Shown here one piece after another: positions 14,231-33,270 of a stretch of 64,000 nucleotides of DNA (position 1 is its first letter; the number at the start of each line of letters is the position of its first letter). Below the pieces are notes generated by a model that saw nothing but the letters and a program-made list of their open reading frames with translations, was not told where the DNA came from and ran no database searches. This stretch comes from Candidatus Eiseniibacteriota bacterium. Lineage in GTDB: Bacteria > Eisenbacteria > RBG-16-71-46. The position numbers were made by a program, and so were the translations under genes. The stretch is taken from contig JBGPFC010000019.1 in assembly GCA_041483195.1 (NCBI GenBank), forward strand, positions 2,853 to 66,852, in the 5' to 3' direction.

Positions 14231-14231
14231 C

Positions 14232-16040: not shown

Positions 16041-18551
16041 TTCGGCGTATCTACTACGTTTCCTCTTCGCGCGCTCGACCACCCCGCTCATGGCGCTGCG
16101 ACACGTACTTGCGTGAGAATACATCGAGTCGCTTGCCCAGCGCGTCATCGGTGTAATCATACCTGTCGACGTTTCGCTGTTTCCGCAGGCACCGCACAAG
16201 AAAGCTCACCGGCAAGACAAGAATCATCTTCGTATGCTCCACCCACGTAGTTCGCACCCAGCCTCGATCAGATTCATCGAGCCCCTCGAGCTCGCTGCGC
16301 GTAATAAGCACACCGAATCTGCCGTACGCGCCGGTTAGGTAACTCGCAATCTGCCTAAAGTCGGCCGGCTCCAGCTTCTGAAAGTTCTTCACCTCGAACA
16401 CAACCTGCCGAGAACCATAGTCCTCAAATACTCGCCGCCAGAATCCCCTCTCCGCTGAGTTTGTTGCCACAATGTCGCGTCTTTGGGTGGCATCTGCGTT
16501 CGGCTTCAGCTCCGGATTCGCCAAGGAGCCAGCGAAGAGGATTCTGATAGCTCTGAATACCCACGCCTCAAAATCGGTGCTTCCCGCTTGCCCGAGGGGG
16601 AGCTTTGGAACCTGGGCCACCAACTGCCCCAATTGTCTAGTCCGAAGGTCTTTCAGCTCCGACACCGGCGCGGCGTTTTCGTCATCGTGCACATCGGTGA
16701 GAATTCCAGGAGCTGGTTCGTTCGCGAGAACATCAAGTGCCAGCCAGTAGCATGGATGAATGGCAGTCCTTCTTTCGGCATCGCGCGTATCCAAGGCCGA
16801 AGGAGCTCCGTCATGGCAAAAGCTAAATCTGCCGGCCGCGACATCCTCGAGTCCTATGAAACCAATCCCGTGAAGCGCCGACAAGAGATCATGCCCGCCT
16901 CCGAAGATCGCAAAGTCGCTCGCCCCCCTCTGGCTGTAGTCATCATTGCGTGCGACCGCATCCAAGTAATCCGTTCGTTGCGCAACCGTTGCAAACGCTT
17001 GCGCGCCATGGAACGAGCGGAGAACAAGCTCTATCCCGGGAAAGACGGCGTCGTACTCCTTGATGAGATCGCTTAGGCGATCCCGAGATATCTGGGTCGC
17101 GGTCGCCTCGACATCCGCTTCTACCAGCGCGGTCCGCCCGGATCTCGCCGCAGCGACAAACGCTTGATTGAGGAGAACCAAGACGTCACGCGGTCGGAGA
17201 AGGGTCTGCTGAAGGCACCTCGCAAATCCTTCACGATCTTGGAGCCCGCGTTGGGCGAATCGATTCCAGACTTTGATGTCGTTTTGGGTCGACTCTAAGC
17301 GAAGCGCGACACGAAGCCGATTCGCCACAAGATGTAGGAGGCTGCCCTCGTCCCATCTGAGGCGAAGGGTGTTGCCCTCTATGTGGCGGGAGTAGTCCAT
17401 GTCTAGGTGAGCAAGCGCGCGGAATATATTGTCCCGCATGAAGAGAATGCCGTGGATTTCGCTCTTTCGGTCCACGAAGTCCGCCATCGCCAATGCAAGG
17501 CCTCCCAAGATCGCTGTTGATTGTTGGTCGGGAGCCCAGCCCTCATCGAGCCCGTCGAACAAGAACAATGCCGGCTTGCCGGAGTCGCGGAGCACCTCAT
17601 CCACCGACTCCTGGACGTCGCCGAGGCGAAGGTTGCTGGCTACGAGGCCCGGCACTTCATGGACGTCACTTCCCTGCGCGCGGGCGCGGCCCAGGATTTC
17701 CACGCAACGCCCTATGCCGCCGAGTTTCAGAAGGGATCGGTGCTCGTTGGCATAGCCCCTCAGGAACGCTGCGCTGCTGCTCCTGTCCAATTTCCAATAC
17801 TTCAGGACACCTTCCAACACTTTGAAGAGCAGGTGCGCACGCCACGTCACGCGCATCATGGCTCGAGTGCTCTTGTAATTCCCTTCAAAGCGTCGGATCG
17901 TGCTCTGAAGCGAGAGCATTTCGTTTTCTTCTGGGTGTGAGTCGAACAGGAACCGATCGTCTCTCCGCTGAAAATGCTCGGTGATCTTCATGTACAGAGC
18001 CGTCTTGCCGGAACCGCGGCGGCCCACCACAAAATTGAAGTCGGGTGTCCCGGTCAGGGCACGAAAATCCGGCGTCTCGACAAATGCCTGGGACAGCATC
18101 ATGCCGTCGGCCTCGGCTCTACTCGCGCCGAGGATGTTTCCGAAAAGCCCCGCGACGTTGTCTGCTCTGCGCGGTAGAGTATCGGGCGTGTCCACGGATC
18201 TGAAGCTAGCACACGAAGGTGCGCGCGCGGAGACCCTATGGCTATGCCGCCTATACAGCCGCCGCCCTGCCGCATCGGCAGGGCGACAGTTCAGGCGTGA
18301 TGACTGCAGCCAGGATGGGGGGGGCAAGACTTCGAAACGCGTCTTTGCGTTGGCGGCCATCACTCGGGTAGGAGCGCCCTGCAGCGTGGCGACGCCCCGT
18401 GGAAGGCACCCGCCCAGATTGACCGGTCCGTTACCTGTACCCGAAGATCGGATGATAGCGGGCTTCCACCCGGGGGCGATCGGATCGAGTTCTTCGACCG
18501 CGTCGACACCTGCGCCGAGAATATCCTGAGAGAGATGGCGAGGTTCACACG
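16041..18551. other. low-GC (~55% vs ~70% flanks) genomic islet carrying one gene
   Basis: Hand counts on several 60-nt lines inside the region give about 55% GC. Composition changes abruptly right after the stop of the 18-heme gene (16040) and recovers before the LysE gene (18552). No integrase, tRNA or direct repeats were seen. Confidence 0.6.
16054..18102 (-). CDS. P-loop (STAND/ORC-like AAA+) ATPase fused to a C-terminal Mrr-like PD-(D/E)xK nuclease domain; candidate stand-alone defence protein
   Basis: Walker A is VVGRRGSGKTALY and Walker B is ALFLFDGLDEGW, followed by the sensor-like strand ILFMRDN and LLRPRDVLVLLNQA. The C-terminus DFEAWVFRAIRILF...RRDIVATN...QVVFEVKNFQ...RFGVLITRS fits a D...ExK restriction-endonuclease core. 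The ORF is open up to 18363 (GTG), but the Arg-rich upstream part looks non-coding, and the ATG at 18102 has GAGG 11 nt upstream. Confidence 0.7.
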   Translation of the reverse strand: MMLSQAFVETPDFRALTGTPDFNFVVGRRGSGKTALYMKITEHFQRRDDRFLFDSHPEENEMLSLQSTIRRFEGNYKSTRAMMRVTWRAHLLFKVLEGVLKYWKLDRSSSAAFLRGYANEHRSLLKLGGIGRCVEILGRARAQGSDVHEVPGLVASNLRLGDVQESVDEVLRDSGKPALFLFDGLDEGWAPDQQSTAILGGLALAMADFVDRKSEIHGILFMRDNIFRALAHLDMDYSRHIEGNTLRLRWDEGSLLHLVANRLRVALRLESTQNDIKVWNRFAQRGLQDREGFARCLQQTLLRPRDVLVLLNQAFVAAARSGRTALVEADVEATATQISRDRLSDLIKEYDAVFPGIELVLRSFHGAQAFATVAQRTDYLDAVARNDDYSQRGASDFAIFGGGHDLLSALHGIGFIGLEDVAAGRFSFCHDGAPSALDTRDAERRTAIHPCYWLALDVLANEPAPGILTDVHDDENAAPVSELKDLRTRQLGQLVAQVPKLPLGQAGSTDFEAWVFRAIRILFAGSLANPELKPNADATQRRDIVATNSAERGFWRRVFEDYGSRQVVFEVKNFQKLEPADFRQIASYLTGAYGRFGVLITRSELEGLDESDRGWVRTTWVEHTKMILVLPVSFLVRCLRKQRNVDRYDYTDDALGKRLDVFSRKYVSQRHERGGRAREEET

Positions 18552-19184
18552 GTGACCCATTTCAGCGCATATCTCGCGATCGCCGTCCTCGTCATCGTGA
18601 CGCCGGGGCAGGACACCGCCCTGGTGATTCGAAACACGTTGGTCGGCGGGCGGAGGGCCGGCGTGTGGACGACCATCGGCGTCGTCGCCGGGCAGGCCAC
18701 GTGGGCGCTCGCGACCAGCGCGGGCGTTGCGGCGCTGCTGCTCGCCTCGGAGCCCCTGTTCGCCGCCCTCAGGCTCGCGGGCGCGGCGTATCTCGTGGTG
18801 CTGGGCGCGCAGGCCCTCTACGGCGCGTGGGTCCACGGTCGCGCGCGGGGCGACGCGATCGACGGGCGCTCGCAACGAGGCATCACGCCGCGCGTCGCGT
18901 TGCGGCAGGGGCTCATCAGCAATCTCGGCAACCCGAAGGTCGCGGTCTTCTTCACGAGCCTGCTGCCGCAGTTCGCGCCACCTCACCGAGCTTCGTTTTC
19001 CGCGCTGCTCTTTCTCGGCCTCGTGTTCTGCTCGGTGACGCTGGTCTGGCTGACCGGTTACTCTTTCGCCGTCGAGCGGTTCGGCGACGTGCTGCGCCGC
19101 GCGAGGATTCGCCGCGCGACGGAGGGATTGCTCGGCGCCGTGCTCGTCGCGCTCGGAGTGCGTCTCGCGCTGGAGAGGCGCTGA
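18552..19184 (+). CDS. LysE/RhtB-family amino-acid exporter
   Basis: MTHFSAYLAIAVLVIVTPGQDTALVI..., about six TM segments, 210 aa; typical of LysE translocators. Confidence 0.8.
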   Translation: MTHFSAYLAIAVLVIVTPGQDTALVIRNTLVGGRRAGVWTTIGVVAGQATWALATSAGVAALLLASEPLFAALRLAGAAYLVVLGAQALYGAWVHGRARGDAIDGRSQRGITPRVALRQGLISNLGNPKVAVFFTSLLPQFAPPHRASFSALLFLGLVFCSVTLVWLTGYSFAVERFGDVLRRARIRRATEGLLGAVLVALGVRLALERR

Positions 19185-19188
19185 GGTC

Positions 19189-19608
19189 ATGAGCGACTCG
19201 GTCCATCGCGTGACGACGAAAGCCGCGCATTTCATCCTCTACGTCTCGAGCCAATCGGTCAGCACCGACTTCTACGCGAAGGTCCTCGGCCGTCCGCCGC
19301 GGCTGAACGTTCCGGGGATGACGGAGTTCGAGCTGACCTCGGGCTCGGTGCTCGGCCTCATGCCATGCGAAGGAATCCGCCGCCTGCTGGGCGGAGCGAT
19401 CCCGGATCCGGAGGGCGCGGCGGGGATCCCGAGGTCGGAGGTCTACCTCGTGGTGGACGACGCATCGGCTCTCCACCGCCGCGCCCTGGCCGCGGGCGCC
19501 CGTGAGTTGAGCGGCGTCCAGAGACGGGACTGGGGCCACGACGCGGGATACACCCTCGATCCTGACGGTCACGTGCTCGCCTTCGCGAACGTGACGAAGC
19601 GGGCGTGA
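19189..19608 (+). CDS. VOC/glyoxalase-bleomycin-resistance family protein
   Basis: 139 aa. HFILYVSSQSVSTDFYAKVLG...YLVVDDASALHRRALAAGA...DPDGHVLAF resembles paired beta-alpha-beta-beta-beta modules. Confidence 0.65.
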   Translation: MSDSVHRVTTKAAHFILYVSSQSVSTDFYAKVLGRPPRLNVPGMTEFELTSGSVLGLMPCEGIRRLLGGAIPDPEGAAGIPRSEVYLVVDDASALHRRALAAGARELSGVQRRDWGHDAGYTLDPDGHVLAFANVTKRA

Positions 19609-19661
19609 AGGCCGGTCGTAGCGGACGGGGCTGAGCGCGGCCCCGGTTCAACCCCGATCCC

Positions 19662-22508
19662 CTAGCGGTACCCGAACACCGCGGCGTAGAGGATCAGCAG
19701 GATCAGCAGGATCCCGAGCGTGAGCGCGGCCGCTCCGAACACCTTCCACAGCAGCAGCGTGCGCGGATCGGGCGGCTCGACCATCCGCTCCTGCAGCTCG
19801 CCGCTCGCCATCATCTCCTCGTACTCGCGCGGGCGATCCTTCTTGTACTCCTCGAGCGGCACGATGCCGGTGAAGATCACGGTGTCCATCGGGAACTTCT
19901 CGGGGCGGAAGTGGGTGTTGAAGAAGTGCACGGTGAAGATGAATCCCACCGCCAGCAGCGCCTCGTCGCTGTGCACGATGGTCGCGACGTTCAGCAGCCA
20001 GCCCGGCAGCAGCCGCGTGAAGAACGTGGGGAACCAGAGCATGAGCCCGGTGGCGCCGATGATGGCGACGCCCCAGAAGACCGCGAAGTAGTCGAACTTC
20101 TCCCAGTAGGTCCAGCGGCCGTAGGCGGGGCGGGACCCGCGCCCGGCGAACCACTTGACGGACTGGATGAATTCCTTGAGATCGGTGAGCCCGGGGAGCA
20201 TCCCGTTCGGCCCGGCGATGAACGCCAGCCACGACCGCCCGCTCGCGCGCTTGCGCCTCGCCATGTCCCACAGGTGAATGCCGAAGTAGCTGAACGTGAT
20301 CACCGCGCACACGCGATGAATGAAGCCCGCCGCCTCGAAGCCTCCGAGCACGCGCGACAGCGCCCACGCCCAGCCTGTGTACGAGAACTTGAGCGTCATG
20401 CCGGTGATCGCGAGCCCGAGAAAGCTCACCATCACCATGACGTGGAGGTTGCGGTAGAGCTTGGGAAACCGCCGCAGGTACACGCCGGACGCGCCGACGT
20501 GCTCGCGCTTGAGCTCGGCGCGGTAGCGCAGCGAGCGCGGCAGCCATGCGAAGGTGTGCAGGCCGGCGAACGCGAAGGTGCCGATCAGGAGCCCGGTCAT
20601 TCCCCAGAAGGTCCAGAACAGCGCGGGGTATTTCTTCGGATCGTGGTGCGTCGCGTGCGTGAGGTAGCCCGCGAACCGCCGGTTCGATCCGGGATGGCAC
20701 TGCCCGCAGGTCTTCACGATGTTCTGCCGCGAGAGGTGCGATTTCGGATTGAAGATCGCCTGGATGTCGTGTGCGCCATGGCAGTCGTAGCACTTCGCGG
20801 TCTTGAGATAGCCCAGCTTCGACACCTTGCCGTGGTAGGTCTCGAAGTAGCTCTCGGCGAGCGCGCGATGGCAGCGCCCGCACTGGGTCATGATGTTGAG
20901 CCGGAAGTTCTCCTTGTCGGTCCGCCCGATCTGGTGCGCGCTGTGGCAGTCGGAGCAGGTCGGCAGCGGCTGCTTCGTGTGCGAAACGTTCGGCGAGTGG
21001 ATGCTGGAGCTGAACAGTTCGTAGATGCCGCGATGGCACCGGGCGCAGGTGGTCGCGATGTTCGCGGGGTTCACGCTGGACTGCGGATTCTCGTGCGGCA
21101 GCTCGCCGTGCGAGGTGTGGCAATCCACGCAGGTCGCGGTGACGACCAGCCCGCTCTCGAGCAGGCCCTTGCCGTGAATGCTCTCGACGTAGCTCTCGAC
21201 GATCAGGCGTTCCGTGCCGCGGTAGCGCACGGCGGCCTTGTTCCCGGTGCGGTGGCAGCGGCCGCACAGCTCTGGAACGTTCTTCGCGTAGGTCGGCGAG
21301 TCGGACTCGAGGTGGCCCTGCATCCCGTGCGTGCCGTGGCAGTCGGCGCACATCGGTGCATCCGGGCTCTCCTTCGCCGCCAGCTGGCCGTGGGTGCTCG
21401 AGCGATAGGTGTTCACCACCTCGGCGTGGCAGATCGAACAGTCCACCTTGCCGGTGATGGTGCGGCACGGCCGCAGCTCGGAGGGATTGCCGCCGGTGTG
21501 ACACTGCGCGCACGCGACGCGGGCGTGCCGCGAGTGGGCGAGCGAGTCGGCGTTCACGGTCATCGACGCCCCGCTCGCCGCGCGCAGGTCGCGCTTCGCG
21601 TGGCAGGACAGGCAGTCCTTGTCGGCCATGCCCTGGGTGTAGAACACCCGCCGCGCCTTGTGCGGCGAGTGGCAGTCCACGCAAGCCGGGATCAGGTTGG
21701 GCTGCTTCTCCCACAGCTCGCCGCGAACCACCTTGCGGTGCACGACCTCGATGCGCACGTGGCACTGCGTGCAAGTCTTCGCGACGTTGCGGTGCGCGAT
21801 CGAGGAGCGCGGGTCGGTGTGCGGGAGCACGAAGTGCGCGGTGTGGCAGCTGGTGCACACCGCGGTGGTGAGCAGGCCCTTCTTGTAGAGACCCTCGCCG
21901 TGGATCGACTCGGAGTAGTTGGCGAGGATGCTGTCCTGCGGGATGTGATACGTGATCTGGACCGGCGAACCCTCGTGATGGCAACGGCCGCAAAGCATCG
22001 GCACGTTGAACTTGTTCACCGGGGAAGCGAGATCGGAAGGCCTCAGCACGTCGTGCGTGCCATGGCACGCCTTGCAGCTCGGCGCGAGCTTCTCGCCGCG
22101 CTGTGCCGCGAGGCCGTGAATGCTCTCGTGGTACTGGATCTGCTCGGCCCCGTGACACTGGCCGCAATCGACCGGCTTCGGCTTCGGGTGCGGGAAGTCC
22201 TGGTTCGCTAGATCGGCGTGGCAGGCGGCGCACTCGATCCCGGCATGCGGCGAGGCGCGCAGCGCGGCAGCGTCGTAGTTCGGAGGCTCGTCCGGCCCGC
22301 GATGCGCGGCCGGCACGCCGCCCTGGTGGCACATCGCGCACGGTTCGGAGCCCGGGAGCTGCGCGGCGGCTGGCGCGTTCTTCTGCGCGGCGCCCGCCGC
22401 GGGGAGGGTCGCGGCGCCCTGCGCGTGTGCGCTCGCGGGCGCGCTCACGCGCGACCCCATCACCACGAACGCGAGCAGGGCCATGACGAGCGTCGCCCGC
22501 TGCGACAT
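19662..22508 (-). CDS. CbcL-like fusion: 19-heme periplasmic c-type cytochrome domain plus C-terminal HydC/FdnI-type membrane cytochrome b domain
   Basis: Signal peptide MSQRATLVMALLAFVVMG (ATG at 22508; the ORF is open to 22544). Nineteen CxxCH motifs counted. The C-terminal ~330 aa contain 5-6 TM helices with conserved His (GLHTFAW, NLHVMVM, FIHRVCAV, IVHSDEALLAVGFIFTVHFFNTHF). Confidence 0.8.
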   Translation of the reverse strand: MSQRATLVMALLAFVVMGSRVSAPASAHAQGAATLPAAGAAQKNAPAAAQLPGSEPCAMCHQGGVPAAHRGPDEPPNYDAAALRASPHAGIECAACHADLANQDFPHPKPKPVDCGQCHGAEQIQYHESIHGLAAQRGEKLAPSCKACHGTHDVLRPSDLASPVNKFNVPMLCGRCHHEGSPVQITYHIPQDSILANYSESIHGEGLYKKGLLTTAVCTSCHTAHFVLPHTDPRSSIAHRNVAKTCTQCHVRIEVVHRKVVRGELWEKQPNLIPACVDCHSPHKARRVFYTQGMADKDCLSCHAKRDLRAASGASMTVNADSLAHSRHARVACAQCHTGGNPSELRPCRTITGKVDCSICHAEVVNTYRSSTHGQLAAKESPDAPMCADCHGTHGMQGHLESDSPTYAKNVPELCGRCHRTGNKAAVRYRGTERLIVESYVESIHGKGLLESGLVVTATCVDCHTSHGELPHENPQSSVNPANIATTCARCHRGIYELFSSSIHSPNVSHTKQPLPTCSDCHSAHQIGRTDKENFRLNIMTQCGRCHRALAESYFETYHGKVSKLGYLKTAKCYDCHGAHDIQAIFNPKSHLSRQNIVKTCGQCHPGSNRRFAGYLTHATHHDPKKYPALFWTFWGMTGLLIGTFAFAGLHTFAWLPRSLRYRAELKREHVGASGVYLRRFPKLYRNLHVMVMVSFLGLAITGMTLKFSYTGWAWALSRVLGGFEAAGFIHRVCAVITFSYFGIHLWDMARRKRASGRSWLAFIAGPNGMLPGLTDLKEFIQSVKWFAGRGSRPAYGRWTYWEKFDYFAVFWGVAIIGATGLMLWFPTFFTRLLPGWLLNVATIVHSDEALLAVGFIFTVHFFNTHFRPEKFPMDTVIFTGIVPLEEYKKDRPREYEEMMASGELQERMVEPPDPRTLLLWKVFGAAALTLGILLILLILYAAVFGYR

Positions 22509-22654
22509 GCTCGTCACGACCCCGCCGATGCCATCGCGCGCCACAGCCCACCCGCTCTCGCGCGGCGTGGCCTGTTCCGCGCACTCCGACCCGCGGCGCC
22601 GCGGCCCGCGGGCGATGAGCGGGGCCGCGCGGCGCGCGGTCCCGCGTTATGTCC

Positions 22655-23332
22655 CTACTTGGTCGGCGCCGCCACCGCCACGACGTGCGTGCCCTTGGCC
22701 TTGTACTCGTCGAACTTGAAGTTCGGGCTCGTAACCGGCGTATGGCACTGCATGCACATGTTCGCGGTCGGATGACCGTAGATGAACTTCTTCTTGTCCG
22801 CCGCAGCCGCCGGCACGTGCAGGCTTCCCGGTCCGTGGCACCCTTCGCAGGTCATGTTGCTCACGCCCGCGTTCTTGGTGCTGTCCGCCGCCGGATATCC
22901 GCCCGCCAGGTGAAACGCGGTCACGTGGCACGTGACGCAGGCTTCGTTGTCCGCGGGATTGCCCTTCAGCTCGACCTTGAGCTTCGCGGCCATCTCGGCG
23001 ACCGCCTTGGGATCGGCCTTGCGAAGATTCTCGAGCGCGTGCGCGTGATTGGTCTCCGAAAACGCCTTGTACTGTTTGAAGTGGCACATCTTGCACTTGT
23101 TGACGCCCAGGTACTCGGCAGCCTTCGCATCGCTCGCGGCCGGCGCCTTCTGGTCCGTCTTGTACGTCTTGCCCGCTGCGCTGAGATCCGCACCGCCCGC
23201 GGGGTTCACGTGACAGGTCGCGCACGCCGCCTTGGTCTGGCGCGCAAATTCGGGGAACGCCCACGCATGGACCGCCAGCATCGCGACCAGGCCCGCCGCG
23301 AGCAGACCGACCACCACACTCCGTACTCGCAT
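22655..23332 (-). CDS. periplasmic pentaheme c-type cytochrome
   Basis: Signal peptide MRVRSVVVGLLAAGLVAMLAVHAWA. Five CxxCH motifs (CATCH, CKMCH, CVTCH, CEGCH, CMQCH). First gene of the minus-strand unit that continues into 19662-22508. Confidence 0.8.
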   Translation of the reverse strand: MRVRSVVVGLLAAGLVAMLAVHAWAFPEFARQTKAACATCHVNPAGGADLSAAGKTYKTDQKAPAASDAKAAEYLGVNKCKMCHFKQYKAFSETNHAHALENLRKADPKAVAEMAAKLKVELKGNPADNEACVTCHVTAFHLAGGYPAADSTKNAGVSNMTCEGCHGPGSLHVPAAAADKKKFIYGHPTANMCMQCHTPVTSPNFKFDEYKAKGTHVVAVAAPTK

Positions 23333-23416
23333 CGCTCAGCCTCCTTCGACCGTACGCTCTCGACCTCTCGAACCGGGCCATTCAGGGAGACCCGGTGCAT
23401 CACACCGGTACTAGTA

Positions 23417-23661
23417 GGCAAGGACCGGACCTCCGTAGTTTTCCGTAGGGTCCCTGCGGATATCCGAAACTTACGCGACTTCCGGCGCGACGCACAAGCC
23501 GGGAGGCGCCTCGTGACCGAGGCGAGTCTGCCACTATTGTCACGGCCTGCCAGAATGTCGGCCCGCGGCCCCGCCGGGAGCGGCGTTCGGGAGGGGCCGC
23601 CCTTGCGAATCAACCGTCTGCGCCGGGCCCGCGGTTGCCCTGCTATGGTCCGGTCCTTGCC
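23417..23661. repeat. perfect 15-bp inverted repeat pair (GGCAAGGACCGGACC at 23417-23431; GGTCCGGTCCTTGCC at 23647-23661) bracketing 215 bp of the divergent intergenic region
   Basis: Read directly; the two 15-mers are exact reverse complements. Confidence 0.8.
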
Positions 23662-23702
23662 GTTGGTTGGAGCACAGCAGCGCTGGTGCGAGGGCATCCT
23701 GC

Positions 23703-25898
23703 ATGGCGGACCGTGATGGGGTGGGACGGCGGGCTTGGGGCGCCGCGTGCGACGGACTCTTCCGCTCGCGCGCGGCCGGTCTGTCCGTGGCCACCGTGTT
23801 CGCCGCCATCGCGCTGCTCTTCGCCTCTGGAATTCCGCCGGGCGCCGCACCCGCGAACGCCGCGCCCGACAACGCGACCTGCCTCACCTGCCACGCTTCG
23901 CCCGACATGGGCAAGGCGGCCGTGGACACGCTCGCGATCCACGCTTCGGTCCACGCGGGCCTCGCGTGCTCGAGCTGCCACGCGGGCGTCACCGACATCC
24001 CGCACGCCGAGAAGCTTCCGCGCGTGCGCTGCGAATCGTGTCACGGCGCGGTCGCGAGCGCGCTCGCGCGGAGCGTGCACGGCGCGGCGGGTGCGGTCCG
24101 CTGCACCGACTGCCACGGCACGCACACGATCCGTCCCGCGAAGCGCACGTCGCTCGAGCTGTGCGGCCGCTGCCACGCGAACCAGAGCGCCGACTACCAG
24201 GCCAGCGTCCACGGGGTCGCCCTCGCGAACGGCGATCGCGACGCATCGACCTGCGCCGACTGCCACGGCGTCGTGCACTCGATCCGCGCCCATGCCGACT
24301 CGACGTCCACCGTCAGCCGCGGCCGGCTGGCCGCGACCTGCGGCCGCTGTCACGCCGATCGCGCGCTGATGGCGAAGCGCGGGATCACCATTCCCGAGGC
24401 CTACCAGCTCTTCCGCCGGAGCGTGCACGGCCGCTCGAAGCGCGCCGACGCCGCGGTGTGCTCGGACTGCCACGCGAGCCACCGGCTGCTCCGCGCGAAC
24501 GACCCCGCTTCGTCGATCTATCGCGCGAACATCCCCGCCACCTGCGGGCGTTGCCATCGCGCGCAGGACGAGAAGTACTCGGAGGGCGTGCACGGCACGG
24601 CGCTCGCCCGCGGCGTCACCGCCGCGCCGGTGTGCACCGACTGCCATGGCGAGCACCTGATCCGCGGGCCGAAGGACATCGATTCGCCGGTCGCGAGCGG
24701 GAACGTGAGCGAGACCTGCTCGCGCTGCCACGAGGCGACCGGCATTCGCGAGACCTACGGGCTCCCGGCGGGCCGGCTCTCGACCTACCGCGACAGCTTC
24801 CACGGGCTCGCGGCGCGCGGCGGCTCGCCGGTGGTCGCGAACTGCGCGAGCTGCCACGGCTACCACGACATTCTTCCGTCGAGCGATCCGCGTTCCGCGA
24901 TCTCTCCGGCGCGGCTGCCCACGACCTGCGGGCGCTGCCATCCGGGCGCCGGCGCGCGCTTCGCGATGGGCCGCGTGCACGTCGCCATGACCACGCGCGA
25001 CCAGCCGCTGCTGTTCTGGGTGCGTCGCGCCTATCTCGTGCTGATCGTGCTCACCATCGGCGGGATGACCCTCCACCAGGCGCTCGATTTCGGCTCGAAG
25101 CTGCGGCGTCATCTGTCGGAGCATCTCGGGCAGCTCACGCCGCACACCGACGCGATGAAACGCTGGTACGTCCGCCTCACGCCGTTCGAGCGCGTGCAGC
25201 ACGTGCTGCTGGCGGCGAGCTTCTTCACGCTGGTCTATACCGGCTTCGCGCTCAAGTTCCCGGAGGCCTGGCCGTTCGCATGGCTGGCGCGCCTCGAGGG
25301 CGGATACCGCTGGCGAAGCGTGATCCATCGCGGCGCCGCGGTCGCGATGGTGGCCGCCTCGCTGACGCACCTCGCGTACCTGGCGACGCGCCGCGGCCGC
25401 GAGGCGCTGCGCGCGATGCTGCCCGCCCCGGCCGACGCGACTCAGGCGATCGCGAACCTCCTGTATCTCGCGGGGCTGCGGCGTGCCCCGCCCCAGTTCG
25501 ACCGTTTCAGCTACATCGAGAAGGCCGAGTACTGGGCGCTGATCTGGGGAACCGTGGTCATGAGCGCGACCGGTCTCGTGCTATGGTTCGAGAACGCATC
25601 CTTGCAGTGGCTCAACAAGTGGGTGCTCGATCTCGCGACGGTGGTCCACTACTACGAGGCGTGGCTCGCGTTCCTCGCGATCGTCGTGTGGCACCTGTAC
25701 CAGGTCATGATGAACCCCGACGTGTACCCGATGAACTGGACGTGGCTGACGGGCCGCATTTCCGAGCAGCAGCTGCGCCACGAGCATCCGGCCGAATGGG
25801 CGCGCATGGCGGCGGCGGAAGCCGCGGCCGCGCTCCCCGAAAACCCGCCCGCGGCGGAGGGCGCGCCGCCCCACCCGGAGGAAAGGAACGAACCATGA
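23703..25898 (+). CDS. CbcL-like fusion: 13-heme c-type cytochrome domain plus C-terminal membrane cytochrome b domain
   Basis: Thirteen CxxCH motifs counted. The C-terminal TM region is homologous to that of 19662-22508 (FERVQHVLLAASFF, VIHRGAAVAMV, VVHYYEAWLAFLAIVVWHLYQV). The ATG at 23703 is the first plausible start before the hydrophobic leader. Confidence 0.8.
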   Translation: MADRDGVGRRAWGAACDGLFRSRAAGLSVATVFAAIALLFASGIPPGAAPANAAPDNATCLTCHASPDMGKAAVDTLAIHASVHAGLACSSCHAGVTDIPHAEKLPRVRCESCHGAVASALARSVHGAAGAVRCTDCHGTHTIRPAKRTSLELCGRCHANQSADYQASVHGVALANGDRDASTCADCHGVVHSIRAHADSTSTVSRGRLAATCGRCHADRALMAKRGITIPEAYQLFRRSVHGRSKRADAAVCSDCHASHRLLRANDPASSIYRANIPATCGRCHRAQDEKYSEGVHGTALARGVTAAPVCTDCHGEHLIRGPKDIDSPVASGNVSETCSRCHEATGIRETYGLPAGRLSTYRDSFHGLAARGGSPVVANCASCHGYHDILPSSDPRSAISPARLPTTCGRCHPGAGARFAMGRVHVAMTTRDQPLLFWVRRAYLVLIVLTIGGMTLHQALDFGSKLRRHLSEHLGQLTPHTDAMKRWYVRLTPFERVQHVLLAASFFTLVYTGFALKFPEAWPFAWLARLEGGYRWRSVIHRGAAVAMVAASLTHLAYLATRRGREALRAMLPAPADATQAIANLLYLAGLRRAPPQFDRFSYIEKAEYWALIWGTVVMSATGLVLWFENASLQWLNKWVLDLATVVHYYEAWLAFLAIVVWHLYQVMMNPDVYPMNWTWLTGRISEQQLRHEHPAEWARMAAAEAAAALPENPPAAEGAPPHPEERNEP

Positions 25899-26650
25899 CG
25901 ACCTGTCGCGCGCTGTTCGCGGGGACCCTCGCGATCGCCATGCTGTCCCTGATTTCCGCCTGCCAGACCACGCCGCGGCCGTGGGCGTCGCCGGAATCGC
26001 TTCAGAAGGGCCAGCAGGCGTTCCTCTCGTACTGCGCGATGTGTCACGGCGACGGGGGCGACGGCGACGGCGAGCTCGCCTCCACGCTCCAGCAATCCGG
26101 CGTGGTGGTCGCGCGGCTCAGCAGCGCGGCGAGCATGCAGAAGCTCGGATACCTGGGCGTGCGCAAGGTGATCGTTCAGGGCGGCGCGCACACCGGTCGT
26201 TCGAACATCATGCCCGCCTGGGGCGAGCGCTTGCCAGACGACCTCATCAGCGCCATCGCGGCCTACGTGATGACGCTCTCCGACAAGACGCCGGCCATTC
26301 CGGAGGCCACGGTGCGGAAGTACCTCGCGGCGCCGGCCGGCGTTCCGGACGAAGGCCGCCGCGTGTTCGTGCACTACTGCGCGGCGTGTCACGGCCCGTT
26401 CGGTCGCGGCGACGGCACCTACGCCGAGGCGCTGCGCGTGCAGCACAACATCCGCCCGCGCGATCTCACCGACTCGACCTACCTCGCGCAGAAGACCGAC
26501 GAGCAGCTGTTCGCGACCATCTCGCTGGGCGGGGCGCACGTCGGAAAGTCGAACTTCATGCCGGCCTGGTCAGTGTCGCTCAGCCCCGAGCAGATCAAGA
26601 GCCTCGCCAGCTACATCCGCGAGATCTCGCGCACCTCGCCGCGGCCCTGA
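25895..26650 (+). CDS. periplasmic (lipoprotein-like) diheme c-type cytochrome, paralog of 6012-6785
   Basis: ATGA overlap with the preceding gene. Leader ...MLSLISAC. Two CxxCH motifs (CAMCH, CAACH) with the same GGAHxG(R/K)SN.MPAW motifs as the paralog. Confidence 0.8.
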   Translation: MTTCRALFAGTLAIAMLSLISACQTTPRPWASPESLQKGQQAFLSYCAMCHGDGGDGDGELASTLQQSGVVVARLSSAASMQKLGYLGVRKVIVQGGAHTGRSNIMPAWGERLPDDLISAIAAYVMTLSDKTPAIPEATVRKYLAAPAGVPDEGRRVFVHYCAACHGPFGRGDGTYAEALRVQHNIRPRDLTDSTYLAQKTDEQLFATISLGGAHVGKSNFMPAWSVSLSPEQIKSLASYIREISRTSPRP

Positions 26651-26687
26651 GCGAGGCCAGTCAAGATCCGCTTCATCGCAAACGCGA

Positions 26688-26716
26688 GCGGGCCGGACCC
26701 AGTTGGTCCGGCCCGC
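26688..26716. terminator. GC-rich hairpin between convergent genes (candidate bidirectional terminator)
   Basis: GGGCCGGACC-CAGTT-GGTCCGGCCC is a perfect 10-bp stem, extendable to 12 bp. It is followed by CGCGTTT on the plus strand. Confidence 0.5.
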
Positions 26717-26734
26717 CGCGTTTACCGCTCCTCG

Positions 26735-28057
26735 CTACGCTTCGCGCTTCCCGTCGAGCTGCCGGATCTTGAGGACCAGCATGCCGATGGTCGCGAGGAT
26801 CACCAGCAGCGAGAGCCCCATGCCGATGCGCCGCGTGCGCCAGTCCTTCAGAGCGAGCCCCGCGTCGGCCTCGGCGTGCGACGCGAAGCCGTCGCCTTCC
26901 GCGATGACGGCCTGCACCGCCTCCGCGTCGAAGCCGTGGATCGCGGCGCGCGCGCCCACCAGACGGTCCTGCGCCTCGCGCAGCTGCGCGCGAGCGGCGG
27001 AGGTCTCCATGCCGCGCCGCTCCGCGAGATTCAGCAGGCTGTCCGCGCGAGCGAGCGATCCCTTGAGCCGGCCGAAGCGATCGATGATGAGCGCGGCGCC
27101 GCGCTCCCCGGCCGAGCCCGGCGCGTGACACGAGGCGCACACGCCGCCGGGGCCGTTCGAGAGCATCGCGTCGGTCGGGCGCTGGACGCCGTGATTGCTG
27201 TGGCAGGTTACGCAGCCGCGCTTGCCCGTCGCGAGGAAGGCCGCGCTCACCTTGCTCTTCGCGAACAGCTCGCCCTCGCGGCCGTGGCAGTTGCCGCACA
27301 CCACCGAGATGTCGCGCGTGTTGGGCGGCACGGCGCCGTGATTGCCGTGGCAATCGTTGCAGGCCGGGGCCGCGGTGTCGTCGCGCTCGAGCAGCGCCTT
27401 GCCGTGAACGCTCTGCGAGTAGAGCGCGAACTGGTTGGTCGGCACCGAGCGGCCCTTCATGTACTCGGCGTTGTGGCACTTCGAGCAGGTGATGGGAACG
27501 TTGCGGTGGTACACCGGCGAGCGCGGATCCTTGCGCGTGAGGATGCCGTGCACGCCGTGGCAGTTGGTGCAGGTCGCGACCTTGGTGTCGCCTTCCGAGA
27601 TCTTCTTGCAGTGGACGCTGGTGCGGAACTCGGCCATCGAGAACACGTAGGGCTTGGGGTTGTAGCGCTTCATGTAGGCCGCGTCGGCGTGGCACTTCGC
27701 GCAGACCTCTGCGATCTCGATGCGTGCCGGCGCGCCGCGGAATCCCTTGTCGGGATCCATCGCCGACAGCTCGGGATCGGCCGGATTTCCGCCGTGGCAG
27801 GCCACGCAGCCGAGCCCGCGCACGGCGTGGATGTCCTCCGCGAAATTGCGCGTGGGAGCGACCAGCCGCTCCTCGGTCTGCCGGCGGTGGCAATCCATGC
27901 AGGTGTTGGGGGCGCCCGGGGCGGAGGCCGCGGTCGCCGCGGCGGGCGCGCCCGCCGGAGGCTGCGCGGCGGGCGTTGATTCCGGCGCGGCGTGCGCGAG
28001 CGCCGCGCACAACGCGAGCGCGATCGCCAGCGCGGGCACCACCCGGGGCGCGCTCAC
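26735..28057 (-). CDS. nonaheme c-type cytochrome with a C-terminal TM anchor (module B)
   Basis: GTG at 28057 overlaps the cytochrome b stop (GTGA). Nine CxxCH motifs. C-terminal helix [17 protein letters not shown]. Same architecture as 12977-14230. Confidence 0.8.
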
Positions 28058-30113: not shown

Positions 30114-30249
30114 GTTCGAGTCGAGTGCTCGCGCCTCCGGAAGCGTGGCCGCCGCCCGGGCGCGATCCGGAGCGGCGATCGCGTCGTGCCGTCGTGTGCG
30201 GCGCCGGCCGCTCCCGCGTTCGTGGCGGGAGGCGGCTTGCCGGGAAGTC

Positions 30250-30444: not shown

Positions 30445-31795
<1,351 letters not shown>

Positions 31796-31803
<8 letters not shown>

Positions 31804-33010
31804 CGTCGCCTCCGGGCCCCGATTCCGGCAGCCATAGGATGAAGCCCGCCCCTTCGCCGGGGCGGCTTTCGACCCGGATCCGGCCTCCGTGCCGGGTGAT
31901 GATGCGCTGGCTGATGGAGAGCCCGAGCCCCGTGCCCTGGCCCACCGGCTTGGTCGTGAAGAACGGATCCCAGATGCGATCGAGGTGAGCGGGATCGATG
32001 CCGGGCCCGGTGTCCGTGATCTCGATCGTGACGCCGCCCCCCTCGCGCCGCGTGCGCACCGTGAGCGTCCCGCCCTGCTGCATCGCCTGCACAGCGTTCA
32101 TCATGAGGTTCATGCACACGCCGCGGATGCCGCTCGCTCGCGCCCAGATCTCGGGCAGGTCGGGATCGAGATCCTCCACGCGTTGCACGTTCAGCCTGCG
32201 CATCTCGTAGTCGAGCAGCGAGAACGTGTCCAGCACCGCGCGGTTCACGTCCATCTTGGTCGCGGCCGTCTGATACGGCTGCGCCAGCAGCATGAGCTTG
32301 CGCGTGGTCTCGCTGCAGCGGCGCGCCTCGGTCTCGATCAGCGCCAGCACTTCCGCGGCCTCGGTCACGCCGTCGGCGTCGAACTGGCCGCGCCCGAGCC
32401 AGCGCTCCAGGCTCTCGACGCCCGCCAGCATCGAGGCCAGCGGGTTGTTGATCTCATGGCCGACGCCCGCGGCCAGCAGGCCGAGCGAGGCGAGCCGCTC
32501 GCTGTGCGCGAGCTGGCTCTCGAGCAGGCTGCGCTCCGAGATGTCGCGCCACACCTCGACGATGTGAGTGATCTCGCCGCCCGCGCCCGCGACCGGATTG
32601 AAGCTCACCTCCCAGCGGCGCGGCCGGCCCTCGGCGTCGGGGCGGGTGCGGAGCAGGCGGCGGGCCTGGCGCGAGTCGATCGCCTCGCACGCCGCGCAGC
32701 GATGGCCTTCGCCGCCCGAAACTTGCTCGGGACAATTGAGCGAGTCGTGACAGCTCGAACCCACCAGGCCCGCGCCGCTGATGCCGAAGGCTTCGATGTA
32801 CCGGCGATTGGCGGCCACCACGCGCAGCCCGCGATCGAGCACCACGAGCGCATCGGAGATCGAATCGATCAGCTCGGGGAGGATCGGGCCGACCTGCTGA
32901 AGATCCACGCGGCGCGAGGAATCGGCAGAGATCAGCGGGATGGCGCGGCCGGGCTTGGGTCTGGGGCGGGACGGCTCGCGTTCGCGCTCGGGCACGGAAG
33001 GCAGTGTCAT
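31796..33010 (-). CDS. cytoplasmic PAS-domain sensor histidine kinase with a four-Cys motif in the PAS domain
   Basis: ATG at 33010. PAS-like segment LIDSISDALVVLDRGLRVVAANRRY containing C87-x5-C93-x11-C105-x2-C108. Canonical H-box LAAGVGHEINNPL. N/G boxes MNLMMNAVQA, DTGPGI, GTGLGL. 8-nt overlap with the regulator gene. Confidence 0.85.
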
Positions 33011-33270
33011 CGGAATTCTCCCGGCTGTCACTTTGGCAGCACTCGTGCCGAAAGGCAAGCGGGCGCGAGCCCGTCGCGTGCCTGCAACTTCGCGCGGGCC
33101 TTCGATTAAAATCCGATTGGGGCGTTCCAAAGCGGTCACGTCAGTTCGACTGCAACGCACGAAGCATGCCCCGATGAGGCCCCCACGCCTGGCGGGCCGG
33201 CGGGGCCGTCACCCTCGTGCGCGGGGCGCGGCGTCGCTCCCACGTACGCGCGCATGTCAGATGCGCAGGG

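What the first reader, a model, noticed from the sequence alone, without database searches (positions are those of the whole stretch)
19662..25898. Divergent pair of giant CbcL-like proteins (19-heme and 13-heme c domains fused to membrane cytochrome b)
**Seen in sequence.**
- Both proteins combine a Sec leader, a long array of CxxCH motifs (19 and 13 by my count, many in the paired C..CHG.H...C..CH pattern) and a homologous C-terminal 5-6-TM domain with conserved His pairs.
- They are transcribed divergently from a 370-bp region.
- The minus-strand copy follows a pentaheme cytochrome. The plus-strand copy is translationally coupled (ATGA) to a diheme cytochrome.

**Established knowledge.** Geobacter CbcL fuses a 9-heme domain to a HydC/FdnI-type diheme b domain and acts as an inner-membrane quinol:periplasmic cytochrome oxidoreductase tuned to a redox-potential window.

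**Inference.** Two paralogs with very different heme counts may serve different potential windows or acceptors. Nineteen hemes is unusually large for this architecture.
Basis: partly seen in the sequence, partly recalled or inferred. Interest (0 to 1): 0.65.

Follow-up and report, generated by a model that had tools for sequence, protein, structure and literature searches.

The report
Paired CbcL-family membrane multiheme cytochromes
Two neighbouring, intact genes encode inner-membrane proteins that join a two-haem membrane anchor to periplasmic chains of 19 and 13 haems; they are new members of the already catalogued CbcL/MtoC/MtrH family, so they are ordinary for that family, though no large member has been tested biochemically.

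Summary
Protein A (19662-22508, minus strand, 948 aa) has 19 CxxCH motifs. Protein B (23703-25898, plus strand, 731 aa) has 13. Each ends in an FdnI-type di-haem cytochrome b domain.

- **Real fusions.** Most of the 120 closest database clusters keep the haem count (109 have 19 for A; 111 have 13 for B).
- **Haem ligands.** The four FdnI haem-ligand histidines are invariant in both proteins, and FdnI is the only significant structural match for both models.
- **Relation to CbcL.** A aligns end to end with true 9-haem CbcL orthologues (36-40% identity, E 1e-114 to 1e-127). It equals CbcL plus an N-terminal extension that includes a duplicated 8-haem module. B belongs to a more divergent clade with five membrane helices.
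- **Nineteen haems is not unusual.** A 2018 survey (PMC6295460) lists 3-23 haems for this family, including many 19-haem proteins with A's motif spacing.

A perfect inverted pair of sigma-54-type promoter elements lies in the 370-bp divergent region, beside a sigma-54 activator and sensor kinase.

These are new members of a known kind. The direction of electron flow and any redox-potential specialisation remain untested.

The parts
19662..22508 (-). Gene A: a 948-aa, 19-haem CbcL/MtoC/MtrH-family bc-cytochrome. The ORF could also start at the GTG at 22544.
   Evidence: Found as an ORF with 19 CxxCH motifs. It aligns to CbcL orthologues at 36-40% identity over about 520-620 aligned positions. 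Of its 120 best relatives, 109 have 19 motifs.
22422..22508 (-). A signal peptide, residues 1-29 (MSQRATLVMALLAFVVMGSRVSAPASAHA).
   Evidence: There is a hydrophobic segment at residues 5-23 followed by an AxA-type site read from the sequence. The cleavage site is inferred.
20634..22421 (-). A periplasmic haem domain, about residues 30-625, with 19 CxxCH motifs.
   Evidence: All 19 motifs plus 20 further His residues are invariant in 42 homologues. No Met in this domain is invariant. This fits bis-His ligation of every haem.
21645..22265 (-). First copy of the 8-haem, roughly 240-residue module (A residues 82-288).
   Evidence: Comparing A with itself gives 37% identity over 209 residues with 2 gaps, E 7e-42. 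The motif spacing repeats with a period of 240 residues.
20919..21545 (-). Second copy of the 8-haem module (A residues 322-530).
19662..20633 (-). A membrane domain, residues 626-948. It has a linker helix TM0, a four-helix FdnI-type core and a C-terminal sixth helix.
   Evidence: - Helices come from hydropathy.
- It is 43-46% identical to the CbcL membrane domain.
- The model matches FdnI (1kqf_C) with a TM-score of 0.78.
- H689, H731, H846 and H861 are invariant. Through the A-B alignment they correspond to the FdnI ligands.
- Pfam PF01292 scores only 20.6 bits, below its cut-off.
22655..23332 (-). Pentahaem c554-family periplasmic cytochrome (225 aa), upstream of A on the same strand.
   Evidence: It has 5 CxxCH motifs and matches Pfam Cytochrome_C554 at 61.9 bits. 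The same gene sits next to A-type and/or B-type genes in L082, L083, L084, L088 and L089.
23418..23432 (-). Sigma-54-type -24/-12 promoter element (AGGTCCGGTCCTTGC), 86 bp upstream of the pentahaem start codon.
   Evidence: It is one arm of a perfect 15-nt inverted repeat. The 14-mer occurs only twice in the window. It is conserved in L088 and L089. Promoter function is inferred.
23646..23660 (+). Sigma-54-type -24/-12 promoter element (TGGTCCGGTCCTTGC), 43 bp upstream of B's ATG.
   Evidence: The same element sits at the same distance upstream of the B-type gene in L088. Its position favours the ATG at 23703 over the TTG at 23667 as B's start.
23703..25898 (+). Gene B: a 731-aa, 13-haem bc-cytochrome of a divergent clade with five membrane helices. 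The mechanical ORF starts at the TTG at 23667.
   Evidence: It has 13 CxxCH motifs. Of its 120 best relatives, 111 have 13 motifs and 101 show 5 helices after the haem domain. It is 26-30% identical to CbcL orthologues (E 3e-51 to 1e-63).
24993..25898 (+). B membrane domain, about residues 431-731. It has TM0 and the four-helix FdnI-type core, lacks a sixth helix, and ends in a Pro/Ala/Glu-rich tail.
   Evidence: - Pfam PF01292 scores 51-53 bits against a cut-off of 30.1.
- The model matches FdnI with a TM-score of 0.81 and rmsd 3.5 A.
- The B-family profile hits FdnI at E 4.4e-7.
- H500, H542, H649 and H664 align to FdnI H18, H57, H155 and H169.
25895..26650 (+). Dihaem class-I cytochrome c (251 aa) with a lipoprotein-type signal (LISAC), translationally coupled to B through ATGA.
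   Evidence: Sequence. Pfam Cytochrome_CBB3 and Cytochrom_C each match twice. The same coupled gene follows the B-type gene in L088 and L089 but not in L082-L086.
30445..33160 (-). Sigma-54-dependent response regulator (30445-31803) and PAS histidine kinase (31796-33160). These are the likely regulators of the two promoters.
   Evidence: Domains are from Pfam. Both genes are in the same position in L088 and L089. The regulatory link is inferred.

Best explanation
**What they are.** A and B are intact members of the CbcL/MtoC/MtrH family. These are single polypeptides that connect the membrane quinone pool to periplasmic cytochromes.

**Anatomy.**
- A Sec signal exports a chain of bis-His c-type haems to the periplasm: 19 in A and 13 in B.
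- One linker helix (TM0) returns the chain to the cytoplasmic side.
- A four-helix FdnI-type bundle then holds two b-haems, one near each face of the membrane.
- The ligands are H689+H861 and H731+H846 in A, and H500+H664 and H542+H649 in B.

**Mechanism.** By analogy with FdnI and CbcL, the quinone site lies on the cytoplasmic side, so electrons cross the membrane through the two b-haems and then run along the c-haem chain.

**A in detail.**
- A is essentially a whole CbcL (9 haems and 6 helices) with an N-terminal extension of about 10 haems.
- The extension includes a tandem duplicate of an 8-haem module of about 240 residues.
- A is co-transcribed with a soluble pentahaem c554-type cytochrome.

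**B in detail.** B belongs to a separate five-helix clade. In this lineage it is translationally coupled to a class-I dihaem lipoprotein cytochrome.

**Regulation.** Both operons carry the same sigma-54-type promoter element. They are probably switched on together by the adjacent NtrC-type two-component system.

**Shown and inferred.**
- Shown here: the architecture, the homology, the conserved ligands, the fold, the synteny and the promoter motif.
- Inferred: haem occupancy, the quinone-site position, the partner proteins and the direction of flow.
- My estimate for direction is about 60% outward (quinol oxidation feeding the nearby MtrAB-type outer-membrane conduit) and 40% inward or reversible.
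For: **Motifs and intact genes**
- All haem motifs, and a matching number of extra His, are invariant or nearly so (20 extra His for A's 19 haems, 13 for B's 13).
- Large families of full-length relatives keep the same haem counts.

**Homology**
- A and B are homologous.
- A residues 356-942 align to residues 30-612 of CbcL orthologues from Trichlorobacter thiogenes, Oryzomonas japonica, Geomonas propionica, Geomesophilobacter sediminis and Desulfuromusa kysingii.
- Three of these species (T. thiogenes, O. japonica, G. propionica) are listed as >65%-identity CbcL homologues in PMC9129911. Desulfuromusa kysingii is in Table S2 of PMC6295460.

**FdnI-type domain**
- FdnI (1kqf_C) is the only significant fold match for both models.
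- The four FdnI ligand positions align with the invariant His.
- Positively charged loops follow TM0, TM2 and TM4, which fits the FdnI topology (sequences).

**Other points**
- Module duplication in A.
- Synteny of A-type, B-type, pentahaem, NapC/NirT-type and Rieske/cytochrome b genes.
- MtrA-like decahaem and MtrB/PioB porin at 8210-11318.
- Sigma-54 motif pair, conserved in L088 and L089.
- Sigma-54 activator and kinase.
Against: - There are no biochemical or expression data for any 19-haem or B-type member.
- A's membrane domain scores below the Pfam PF01292 cut-off (20.6 against 30.1 bits). True CbcL orthologues do not hit that model at all, so this says little.
- The A model is only moderately confident (mean pLDDT 67, pTM 0.44). 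Its haem domain cannot be trusted.
- The general sigma-54 consensus is not enriched in the window (44 matches against 64 expected). The promoter call rests on position, duplication and conservation alone.
- B lacks the sixth helix that most family members have.
- The B-dihaem coupling is limited to the closest relatives (L088, L089).
- G. sulfurreducens GSU0274 itself was not retrieved. Orthologues stood in for it.
Confidence: 0.75

Rival explanations
1. Electrons flow inward. A and/or B act as quinone reductases, as proposed for MtoC in Fe(II) oxidisers. They would take electrons from the MtrAB/PioAB-type outer-membrane conduit or other periplasmic donors and reduce quinone at the cytoplasmic face. 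Like formate dehydrogenase-N, this would build membrane potential.
For: - The family occurs in both Fe(III) reducers and Fe(II) oxidisers, and no sequence feature separates the two directions (PMC6295460).
- FdnI's native direction is periplasm to quinone, and both proteins have the FdnI fold and ligands.
- The window also encodes NosZ/NosD, a fused cbb3 oxidase and two Rieske/cytochrome b complexes. These could dispose of electrons taken up.
Against: - All c-haems appear to be bis-His and therefore low potential, as in CbcL (-194 mV, PMC9129911). That suits outward transfer at least as well.
- Fe(II) to quinone is usually uphill, and this topology would not let the membrane potential help.
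- No organism-level physiology is known.
Confidence: 0.25
2. B with its coupled class-I dihaem lipoprotein is not part of extracellular electron transfer. It would be a quinol:cytochrome c oxidoreductase feeding high-potential terminal enzymes encoded nearby (cbb3 oxidase, NosZ). Only A would serve the outer-membrane conduit.
For: - The dihaem protein has two class-I cytochrome c domains of the CcoP type with ..MPAW.. motifs. Such domains are typically His/Met ligated and high potential.
- nosZ, nosD and ccoNO lie within 20 kb.
- B keeps this partner in L088, where no A-type gene is present.
Against: - Two Rieske/cytochrome b complexes already provide that function.
- B-type genes in other lineages lack the dihaem partner. 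They sit instead in operons with A-type and NapC/NirT-type cytochromes.
- The shared promoter element suggests one regulon with the pentahaem-A operon.
Confidence: 0.2
3. A and B work as one unit, either as a hetero-oligomer or as a hard-wired conduit. In the conduit version, A's 19-haem chain reaches across much of the periplasm to the MtrA-like cytochrome without soluble shuttles.
For: - A-type and B-type genes lie within 10 kb of each other in the window and in 6 of the 8 related loci examined. In L083 and L084 they overlap as an operon pair.
- They share the same promoter element.
- Nineteen haems in a row could span roughly 15-19 nm. This is my own estimate from published 10- and 12-haem structures and was not computed here.
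Against: - L088 has B without A. L087 has A with no B within 10 kb.
- A soluble pentahaem is co-transcribed with A, which suggests a shuttle is used.
- The model of A's haem domain is too poor to measure its length.
Confidence: 0.1
4. The fusions are assembly or frameshift artefacts, or pseudogenes.
For: None found.
Against: - Both reading frames are uninterrupted, with third-codon-position GC of 0.91-0.93, typical of genes in this window.
- There are hundreds of full-length relatives with the same domain order and haem counts, from independent assemblies.
Confidence: 0.01

Closest known systems
CbcL (GSU0274) of Geobacter sulfurreducens and its Desulfuromonadales orthologues
   Same: - The domain order is the same: signal peptide, bis-His multihaem c domain, linker helix, then an FdnI-type di-haem b core. 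A also has the C-terminal sixth helix.
- A aligns to essentially the whole orthologue (36-40% identity overall, 43-46% in the membrane domain), including the strongly conserved RWTYWEKFD and NVATI(V/I)HSDEALLA motifs.
- Five membrane-domain His are conserved across A, B and CbcL.
   Different: - CbcL has 9 haems and about 616 aa. A has 19 haems and 948 aa, through an N-terminal extension with a duplicated 8-haem module.
- B has 13 haems and only 5 helices, and is only 24-28% identical in the membrane domain.
- A and B each have one more invariant His at the cytoplasmic end of TM2 (A H745, B H556) that CbcL lacks.
- CbcL's role at low redox potential is shown genetically in Geobacter. Nothing is known for A or B.
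19-haem CbcL/MtoC/MtrH homologues catalogued by Zhong & Shi 2018 (for example Caldithrix abyssi Cabys_319 and Gemmatimonadetes MAF27600.1)
   Same: - Length (905-952 aa), 19 CxxCH motifs and six helices all match.
- Motif spacing is almost identical to A's. MAF27600.1 has motifs at 53, 90, 113, 143, 171 ... 603, and A has them at 57, 93, 115, 145, 173 ... 601.
   Different: They come from different phyla. None has been characterised.
MtoC / MtrH (Dechloromonas aromatica Daro_1404, Gallionella Galf_2006, Rhodoferax Rfer_4073)
   Same: They belong to the same family and are often clustered with mtrAB/mtoAB-type porin-cytochrome genes. In this window an MtrA-like decahaem and an MtrB/PioB porin lie about 8-11 kb from A.
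   Different: They have 9 haems, about 655-673 aa and six helices.
FdnI, the cytochrome b556 subunit of E. coli formate dehydrogenase-N (PDB 1KQF chain C)
   Same: The four-helix di-haem fold matches (TM-score 0.78-0.81). All four haem-ligand His are matched (H18, H57, H155, H169).
   Different: FdnI is a separate subunit that docks to an FeS subunit. In A and B the domain is fused, through an extra helix, to a c-type haem chain. Sequence identity is only 15-18%.

Membership tests
CbcL/MtoC/MtrH family (as delimited in PMC6295460) | An N-terminal exported domain with multiple CxxCH motifs, placed before the membrane domain. | tested here: met
   A has 19 motifs and B has 13, all N-terminal to the helices. 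Both have N-terminal hydrophobic signal segments.
CbcL/MtoC/MtrH family (as delimited in PMC6295460) | A C-terminal HydC/FdnI-like di-haem cytochrome b membrane domain. | tested here: met
   - B scores 51-53 bits on PF01292, above the cut-off.
- A scores 20.6 bits, below the cut-off, but true CbcL orthologues score nothing.
- Both models match FdnI with TM-scores of 0.78-0.81 as the only significant hit.
CbcL/MtoC/MtrH family (as delimited in PMC6295460) | Conserved His ligands for the b-haems in the membrane helices. | tested here: met
   B H500, H542, H649 and H664 align to FdnI H18, H57, H155 and H169. The equivalent A residues are H689, H731, H846 and H861. All are invariant in 42-sequence family alignments and in five CbcL orthologues.
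CbcL/MtoC/MtrH family (as delimited in PMC6295460) | Six transmembrane helices, the usual state. The survey itself lists a few members with five or four. | tested here: inconclusive
   - A has six helices, met.
- B has five and no C-terminal helix, as do 101 of its 120 closest relatives.
- The feature is not strictly required by the survey.
CbcL/MtoC/MtrH family (as delimited in PMC6295460) | Full-length sequence similarity to established members. The survey reports 28.6-100% identity within the family. | tested here: met
   A is 36-40% identical to CbcL orthologues over about 520-620 aligned positions (E 1e-114 to 1e-127). B is 26-30% identical over about 550-600 positions (E 3e-51 to 1e-63), at the lower edge of the range.
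CbcL sensu stricto (Geobacter-type orthologue) | Nine haems, about 610-620 aa, and more than about 57% identity to GSU0274. | tested here: not met
   A has 19 haems and B has 13. Identity to CbcL orthologues is 26-40%. Neither is a CbcL orthologue in the narrow sense.
CbcL sensu stricto (Geobacter-type orthologue) | A menaquinol oxidase required for acceptors at or below about -100 mV, with potential-dependent switch-off. | not testable with these tools
   This needs genetics and electrochemistry. It is known only for G. sulfurreducens.
All-bis-His multihaem c domain (as shown for the CbcL periplasmic domain) | One conserved distal His per haem and no conserved Met ligand. | tested here: met
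   - A family: 20 invariant non-motif His for 19 haems.
- B family: 13 invariant or nearly invariant non-motif His for 13 haems.
- Neither haem domain has an invariant Met.
- Actual ligation was not observed.

The most novel reading that the evidence does not exclude
A-type (19-haem, six-helix) and B-type (9-13-haem, five-helix) proteins could form a conserved, co-regulated functional pair: one sigma-54 regulon with two wires of different length. In this reading, A's duplicated haem modules make a chain long enough to bridge most of the periplasm to the MtrAB-type conduit without soluble carriers. B would serve a second, membrane-proximal acceptor. That would be a hard-wired, branched inner-membrane exit for electrons, unlike the shuttle-based Geobacter model.
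Probability: 0.12. Interest if true: 0.6.

Novelty: new member of a known kind. Interest (0 to 1): 0.3.

Why it matters
Only the 9-haem Geobacter CbcL has been studied in this family. The 19-haem class is widespread in uncultured soil and sediment phyla. Named relatives here are Candidatus Eisenbacteria and Terriglobia, and the 2018 survey adds Caldithrix, Ignavibacteria, Bacteroidetes, Gemmatimonadetes and others.

This locus shows a 19-haem protein, a five-helix paralogue, their partner cytochromes and a likely sigma-54 control region in one compact, conserved arrangement. It sits next to an MtrAB-type outer-membrane conduit.

It is a useful template for annotating such respiratory islands and for choosing constructs to express. 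It does not change what is known about how these proteins work.

Tried and rejected
1. **Lost protein search.** I queried the protein database with CbcL fragments taken from a machine-read supplementary figure of PMC9129911. The text was too corrupted and only two fragments came back, so one of three searches was largely wasted. One fragment (P0122) did lead to a frameshifted CbcL-like gene (L001). Through the genome scan it then led to intact orthologues.
2. **GSU0274 not retrieved.** G. sulfurreducens was not among the 80 loci kept. I used orthologues named in the CbcL literature instead.
3. **PDB sequence searches.** A alone gave no hit. The A-family profile hit only c-type cytochromes, not FdnI. 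The FdnI link for A rests on the fold match, on homology to B and on homology to CbcL.
4. **Promoter and terminator scans.** The sigma-70 and terminator scan of 19400-26900 found no sigma-70 promoter and no terminator on the minus strand. The generic sigma-54 consensus with 2 mismatches is not enriched in the window. Only the specific 14-mer is informative.
5. **A's haem domain.** The model has stretches with pLDDT below 50. I did not use it to judge the shape or length of the haem chain.
6. **Artefactual fusion.** I considered this and rejected it.
7. **The pentahaem as an obligate partner of A.** I rejected this as a strict rule because L088 keeps the pentahaem and B but has no A.


Full report
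**1. The observation**

The reading frames are as described.
- A runs from 22508 (ATG; the mechanical ORF starts at the GTG at 22544) to 19662 on the minus strand.
- B runs from 23703 (ATG; the ORF starts at the TTG at 23667) to 25898 on the plus strand.
- A has 19 CxxCH motifs and B has 13, with no variant CX3-4CH or CxxCK motifs.
- 38 of A's 40 cysteines and 26 of B's 27 are in these motifs. Composition alone predicts about 0.1 motif per protein.
- Both genes have the codon-position GC pattern of real genes in this 70% GC window, with third-position GC of 0.91-0.93.

The neighbouring genes are also as described.
- The pentahaem gene (22655-23332, minus strand) precedes A.
- The dihaem gene's ATG at 25895 overlaps B's TGA stop.
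- The 370-bp divergent region lies between the pentahaem start and B's ATG.

**2. Both are real, conserved fusions**

A has thousands of database relatives.
- The 120 best clusters are 64-85% identical and 877-991 aa long.
- 109 of them have exactly 19 motifs. The other 11 are shorter at the N-terminus and have 18.

B's relatives behave the same way.
- The 120 best are 58-91% identical.
- 111 have 13 motifs, and 101 show five helices after the haem domain.

In 42-sequence alignments every haem motif is invariant or nearly so. So is a matching number of additional histidines (20 for A's 19 haems, 13 for B's 13). No methionine in either haem domain is invariant. This is the pattern expected for all-bis-His haems, as shown experimentally for the CbcL periplasmic domain (PMC9129911).

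Named relatives come from Candidatus Eisenbacteria and Terriglobia. The window probably comes from an Eisenbacteria-like organism.

**3. The membrane domains**

A and B are homologous over 650 residues, including the C-terminal domain (32% identity, E 6e-88).

Hydropathy and the predicted structures give the following layout.
- One helix (TM0) comes directly after the haem domain, followed by four more helices.
- A alone has a sixth helix at the C-terminus.
- Positively charged loops follow TM0, TM2 and TM4. This places the four-helix core with both ends in the cytoplasm, as in FdnI, and explains why an extra helix is needed after a periplasmic domain.

The evidence that the core is FdnI-type is as follows.
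- B matches Pfam PF01292 above its cut-off (51-53 bits).
- A's domain scores 20.6 bits, below the cut-off. True CbcL orthologues do not hit the model at all, so this failure is uninformative.
- The predicted structures (B mean pLDDT 78.6, A 67.3) each have one significant PDB match: FdnI of E. coli formate dehydrogenase-N, with TM-scores of 0.81 and 0.78.
- A profile of the B family hits FdnI by sequence (E 4.4e-7).
- In that alignment B's invariant H500, H542, H649 and H664 fall on FdnI H18, H57, H155 and H169. I recall these as the four haem ligands from the 1KQF structure paper.
- The equivalent A residues are H689, H731, H846 and H861.

**4. Relation to CbcL**

I could not retrieve GSU0274 itself. 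A genome scan seeded with a CbcL-like fragment returned the gene from cultured relatives:
- Trichlorobacter thiogenes, Oryzomonas japonica and Geomonas propionica, which appear in the >65%-identity CbcL alignment of PMC9129911;
- Geomesophilobacter sediminis;
- Desulfuromusa kysingii, which is in Table S2 of PMC6295460 with the same length of 621 aa.

All are 615-621 aa with 9 motifs.

The comparisons give the following.
- A residues 356-942 align to residues 30-612 of these proteins at 36-40% identity (E 1e-114 to 1e-127).
- B aligns at 26-30% identity (E 3e-51 to 1e-63).
- In the membrane domain, A is 43-46% identical to CbcL but only 31% to B. B is 24-28% identical to CbcL.
- Five membrane-domain histidines are conserved in all seven sequences: the four ligands plus one at the cytoplasmic end of TM0.

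A is therefore a whole CbcL-type protein with an N-terminal extension. Comparing A with itself shows a tandem duplication: residues 82-288 match 322-530 at 37% identity with two gaps (E 7e-42). The motif spacing repeats with a 240-residue period, which is an 8-haem module.

Read against the published motif tables, the size classes look modular. This reading is my own.
- 11 haems = 1 + 8 + 2.
- 19 haems = 1 + 8 + 8 + 2.

**5. What was already known**

Zhong & Shi 2018 (PMC6295460) surveyed this family, which they call CbcL/MtoC/MtrH.
- They found 138 homologues in 15 phyla, 416-1034 aa long, with 3 to 23 CxxCH motifs.
- Most have six helices and a few have five or four.
- The genes are often next to mtrAB/mtoAB.
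- Table S2 lists many 19-haem, six-helix proteins: Caldithrix abyssi, Ignavibacteria, Bacteroidetes, Elusimicrobia, Solibacteraceae, Handelsmanbacteria and Gemmatimonadetes MAF27600.1. The last has motif positions nearly superimposable on A's.

Nineteen haems is therefore a common, catalogued class, not an outlier.

I saw no 13-haem, five-helix entry in the parts of that table I read (parts 2 and 3 in full, part 1 only through searched passages). The five-helix entries I could see there (PKN12990.1, OGT98815.1, OQX95005.1) are otherwise ordinary 9- or 20-motif members. B's clade may therefore not have been catalogued. It is still abundant.
- Its membrane domain finds 464 clusters (at 50% identity) at E <= 1e-30 among 1.84 billion representatives.
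- Among the best 150, haem counts run from 0 to 19, with 11 the most frequent.

**6. Genomic context**

The window carries a dense respiratory island, with 85 haem motifs in eight genes between 8.2 and 28 kb. The genes, in order, are listed below.

| Coordinates | Strand | Gene |
|---|---|---|
| 8210-9133 | + | MtrA-like decahaem cytochrome |
| 9144-11318 | + | MtrB/PioB porin |
| 11380-11850 | + | Rieske protein |
| to 12980 | + | Cytochrome b |
| to 14230 | + | 9-haem anchored cytochrome |
| 14232-16040 | + | 18-haem NapC/NirT-type cytochrome |
| 16054-19608 | mixed | Three unrelated genes |
| 19662-22508 | - | A |
| 22655-23332 | - | Pentahaem cytochrome |
| 23703-25898 | + | B |
| 25895-26650 | + | Dihaem cytochrome |
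| 26735-29558 | - | Second 9-haem / cytochrome b / Rieske operon |
| 30445-33160 | - | Sigma-54 response regulator and PAS kinase |
| 33297-38004 | + | nosZ and nosD region |
| 42471-44672 | + | Fused ccoNO |

Related contigs compare as follows.
- L089 has exactly this order around A and B.
- L082 has the same divergent B / pentahaem-A core.
- L083 and L084 have a B-type gene (11 haems) overlapping the start of an A-type gene, in one operon with a NapC/NirT-type cytochrome.
- L085 and L086 have B-type genes (13 and 9 haems) within 8 kb and about 2 kb of the A-type gene.
- L088 has B, the dihaem and the pentahaem, but no A.
- L087 has A with no B within 10 kb.
I did not verify these pairs.

**7. 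Regulation**

The divergent region contains a perfect 15-nt inverted repeat, GGTCCGGTCCTTGCC.
- Its arms are at 23417-23431 and 23647-23661.
- Each arm faces outward. One lies 86 bp before the pentahaem start and the other 43 bp before B's ATG.
- The sequence TGGtccggtccTTGC has the GG and GC elements and the spacing of a sigma-54 -24/-12 promoter.
- The 14-mer occurs nowhere else in the window.
- Both copies are conserved, at the same distance from the genes, in L088. One exact copy is in L089. The rest of the intergenic region has diverged.

Together with the syntenic sigma-54 activator and PAS kinase, this suggests that both operons belong to one regulon. It also favours 23703 as B's start. 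The promoter function is inferred. The generic consensus is not enriched in the window.

**8. How it most likely works**

- *Shown:* architecture, ligands, fold, homology and context.
- *Inferred:* each protein exchanges electrons between the quinone pool and periplasmic cytochromes. The route runs through two b-haems spanning the membrane and then along a bis-His c-haem chain.

The most conserved stretch of the family (RWTYWEKFD in A and CbcL) aligns with the FdnI loop before TM3. I recall that loop as forming part of the cytoplasmic-side quinone (HQNO) site. This is a lead, not a test. If the site is there, two consequences follow.
- Outward flow (quinol oxidation) releases protons to the cytoplasm and is helped by the membrane potential. 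This has been argued for CbcL at low potential (bioRxiv 10.1101/2022.08.31.506072).
- Inward flow would conserve energy as in formate dehydrogenase-N.

The nearby MtrAB-type conduit fits either direction. I lean towards outward flow (about 60%) because of the CbcL precedent and the all-bis-His chains.

A's likely first partner is the soluble pentahaem. B's likely first partner, in this lineage, is the dihaem lipoprotein.

**9. Verdict**

A is a member of a catalogued 19-haem class. B is a member of an abundant but less well described five-helix clade.

- the 8-haem module duplication;
- the recurrent A-type/B-type neighbourhood;
- the paired sigma-54-type promoter elements.

None changes the category: new members of a known kind, of modest interest.

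Noticed in passing
window 16054-18363 (-): A 769-aa gene with a weak AAA ATPase match sits in a 58% GC stretch inside the roughly 70% GC respiratory island. It has weak matches to PADLOC candidate defence families (PDC-M36A, E 1.8e-15; PtuA-like, E 0.003). It is absent from the otherwise syntenic L088, so it may be an inserted defence gene.
   Followed up: partly
window 8210-16040 (+): An operon-like run of genes: an MtrA-like decahaem, an MtrB/PioB porin, a Rieske protein, cytochrome b, a 9-haem cytochrome with a C-terminal anchor, and an 18-haem NapC/NirT-type cytochrome. The same order is seen in L088. It links an outer-membrane conduit directly to a bc-type complex.
   Followed up: partly
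window 26735-29558 (-): A second Rieske / cytochrome b / 9-haem cytochrome operon, with start and stop codons overlapping. It is followed by a conserved gene of unknown function (29613-30272) and the sigma-54 two-component system. The same arrangement is seen in L088 and L089.
   Followed up: partly
window 33297-38004 and 42471-44672 (+): A nosZ-type N2O reductase (its mechanical ORF is over-extended at the N-terminus) with nosD, and a fused CcoN-CcoO cbb3-type oxidase (733 aa). The organism therefore also respires N2O and O2.
   Followed up: no
A residues H651, H745, H866; B residues H458, H556 (window about 19911-20558 and 25074-25370): These invariant histidines are extra to the four FdnI-type ligands. 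All are predicted at the cytoplasmic ends of TM0 and TM2 or just after TM4. The TM0 His is also conserved in CbcL. The TM2-end His is found in the A and B families but not in CbcL. They could belong to the quinone site, or less likely bind a further cofactor.
   Followed up: partly
B residues 59-189 (window 23877-24269): The best solved-structure sequence match for B's N-terminal haem domain is a recent entry, 28pb_A, described only as 'Cytochrome c' (278 aa). E is 1.2e-10 with B alone and 1.4e-14 with the family profile. I could not identify the protein. MtrA (6r2q_A, mislabelled in the table) is the next hit.
   Followed up: no
L001 2635-4805: A CbcL orthologue in a 686-kb metagenome contig is split into several called genes by frameshifts. 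This looks like long-read assembly error rather than a pseudogene. It lies next to a 482-aa NapC/NirT-type (ImcH-like?) gene.
   Followed up: partly
P0355, P0359, P0332, P0338 (representatives): Some relatives of B's membrane domain have the opposite domain order. The b-domain is at the N-terminus, with 14-16 closely spaced CxxCH motifs at the C-terminus, or there are haem motifs on both sides. The membrane module has been combined with haem domains in more than one way.
   Followed up: no
L085 4667-9970: In one Candidatus Eisenbacteria genome the A-type gene directly follows a multihaem / 4Fe-4S / NrfD-type quinol module and lies near feoAB. This is a different neighbourhood from the window's.
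   Followed up: no
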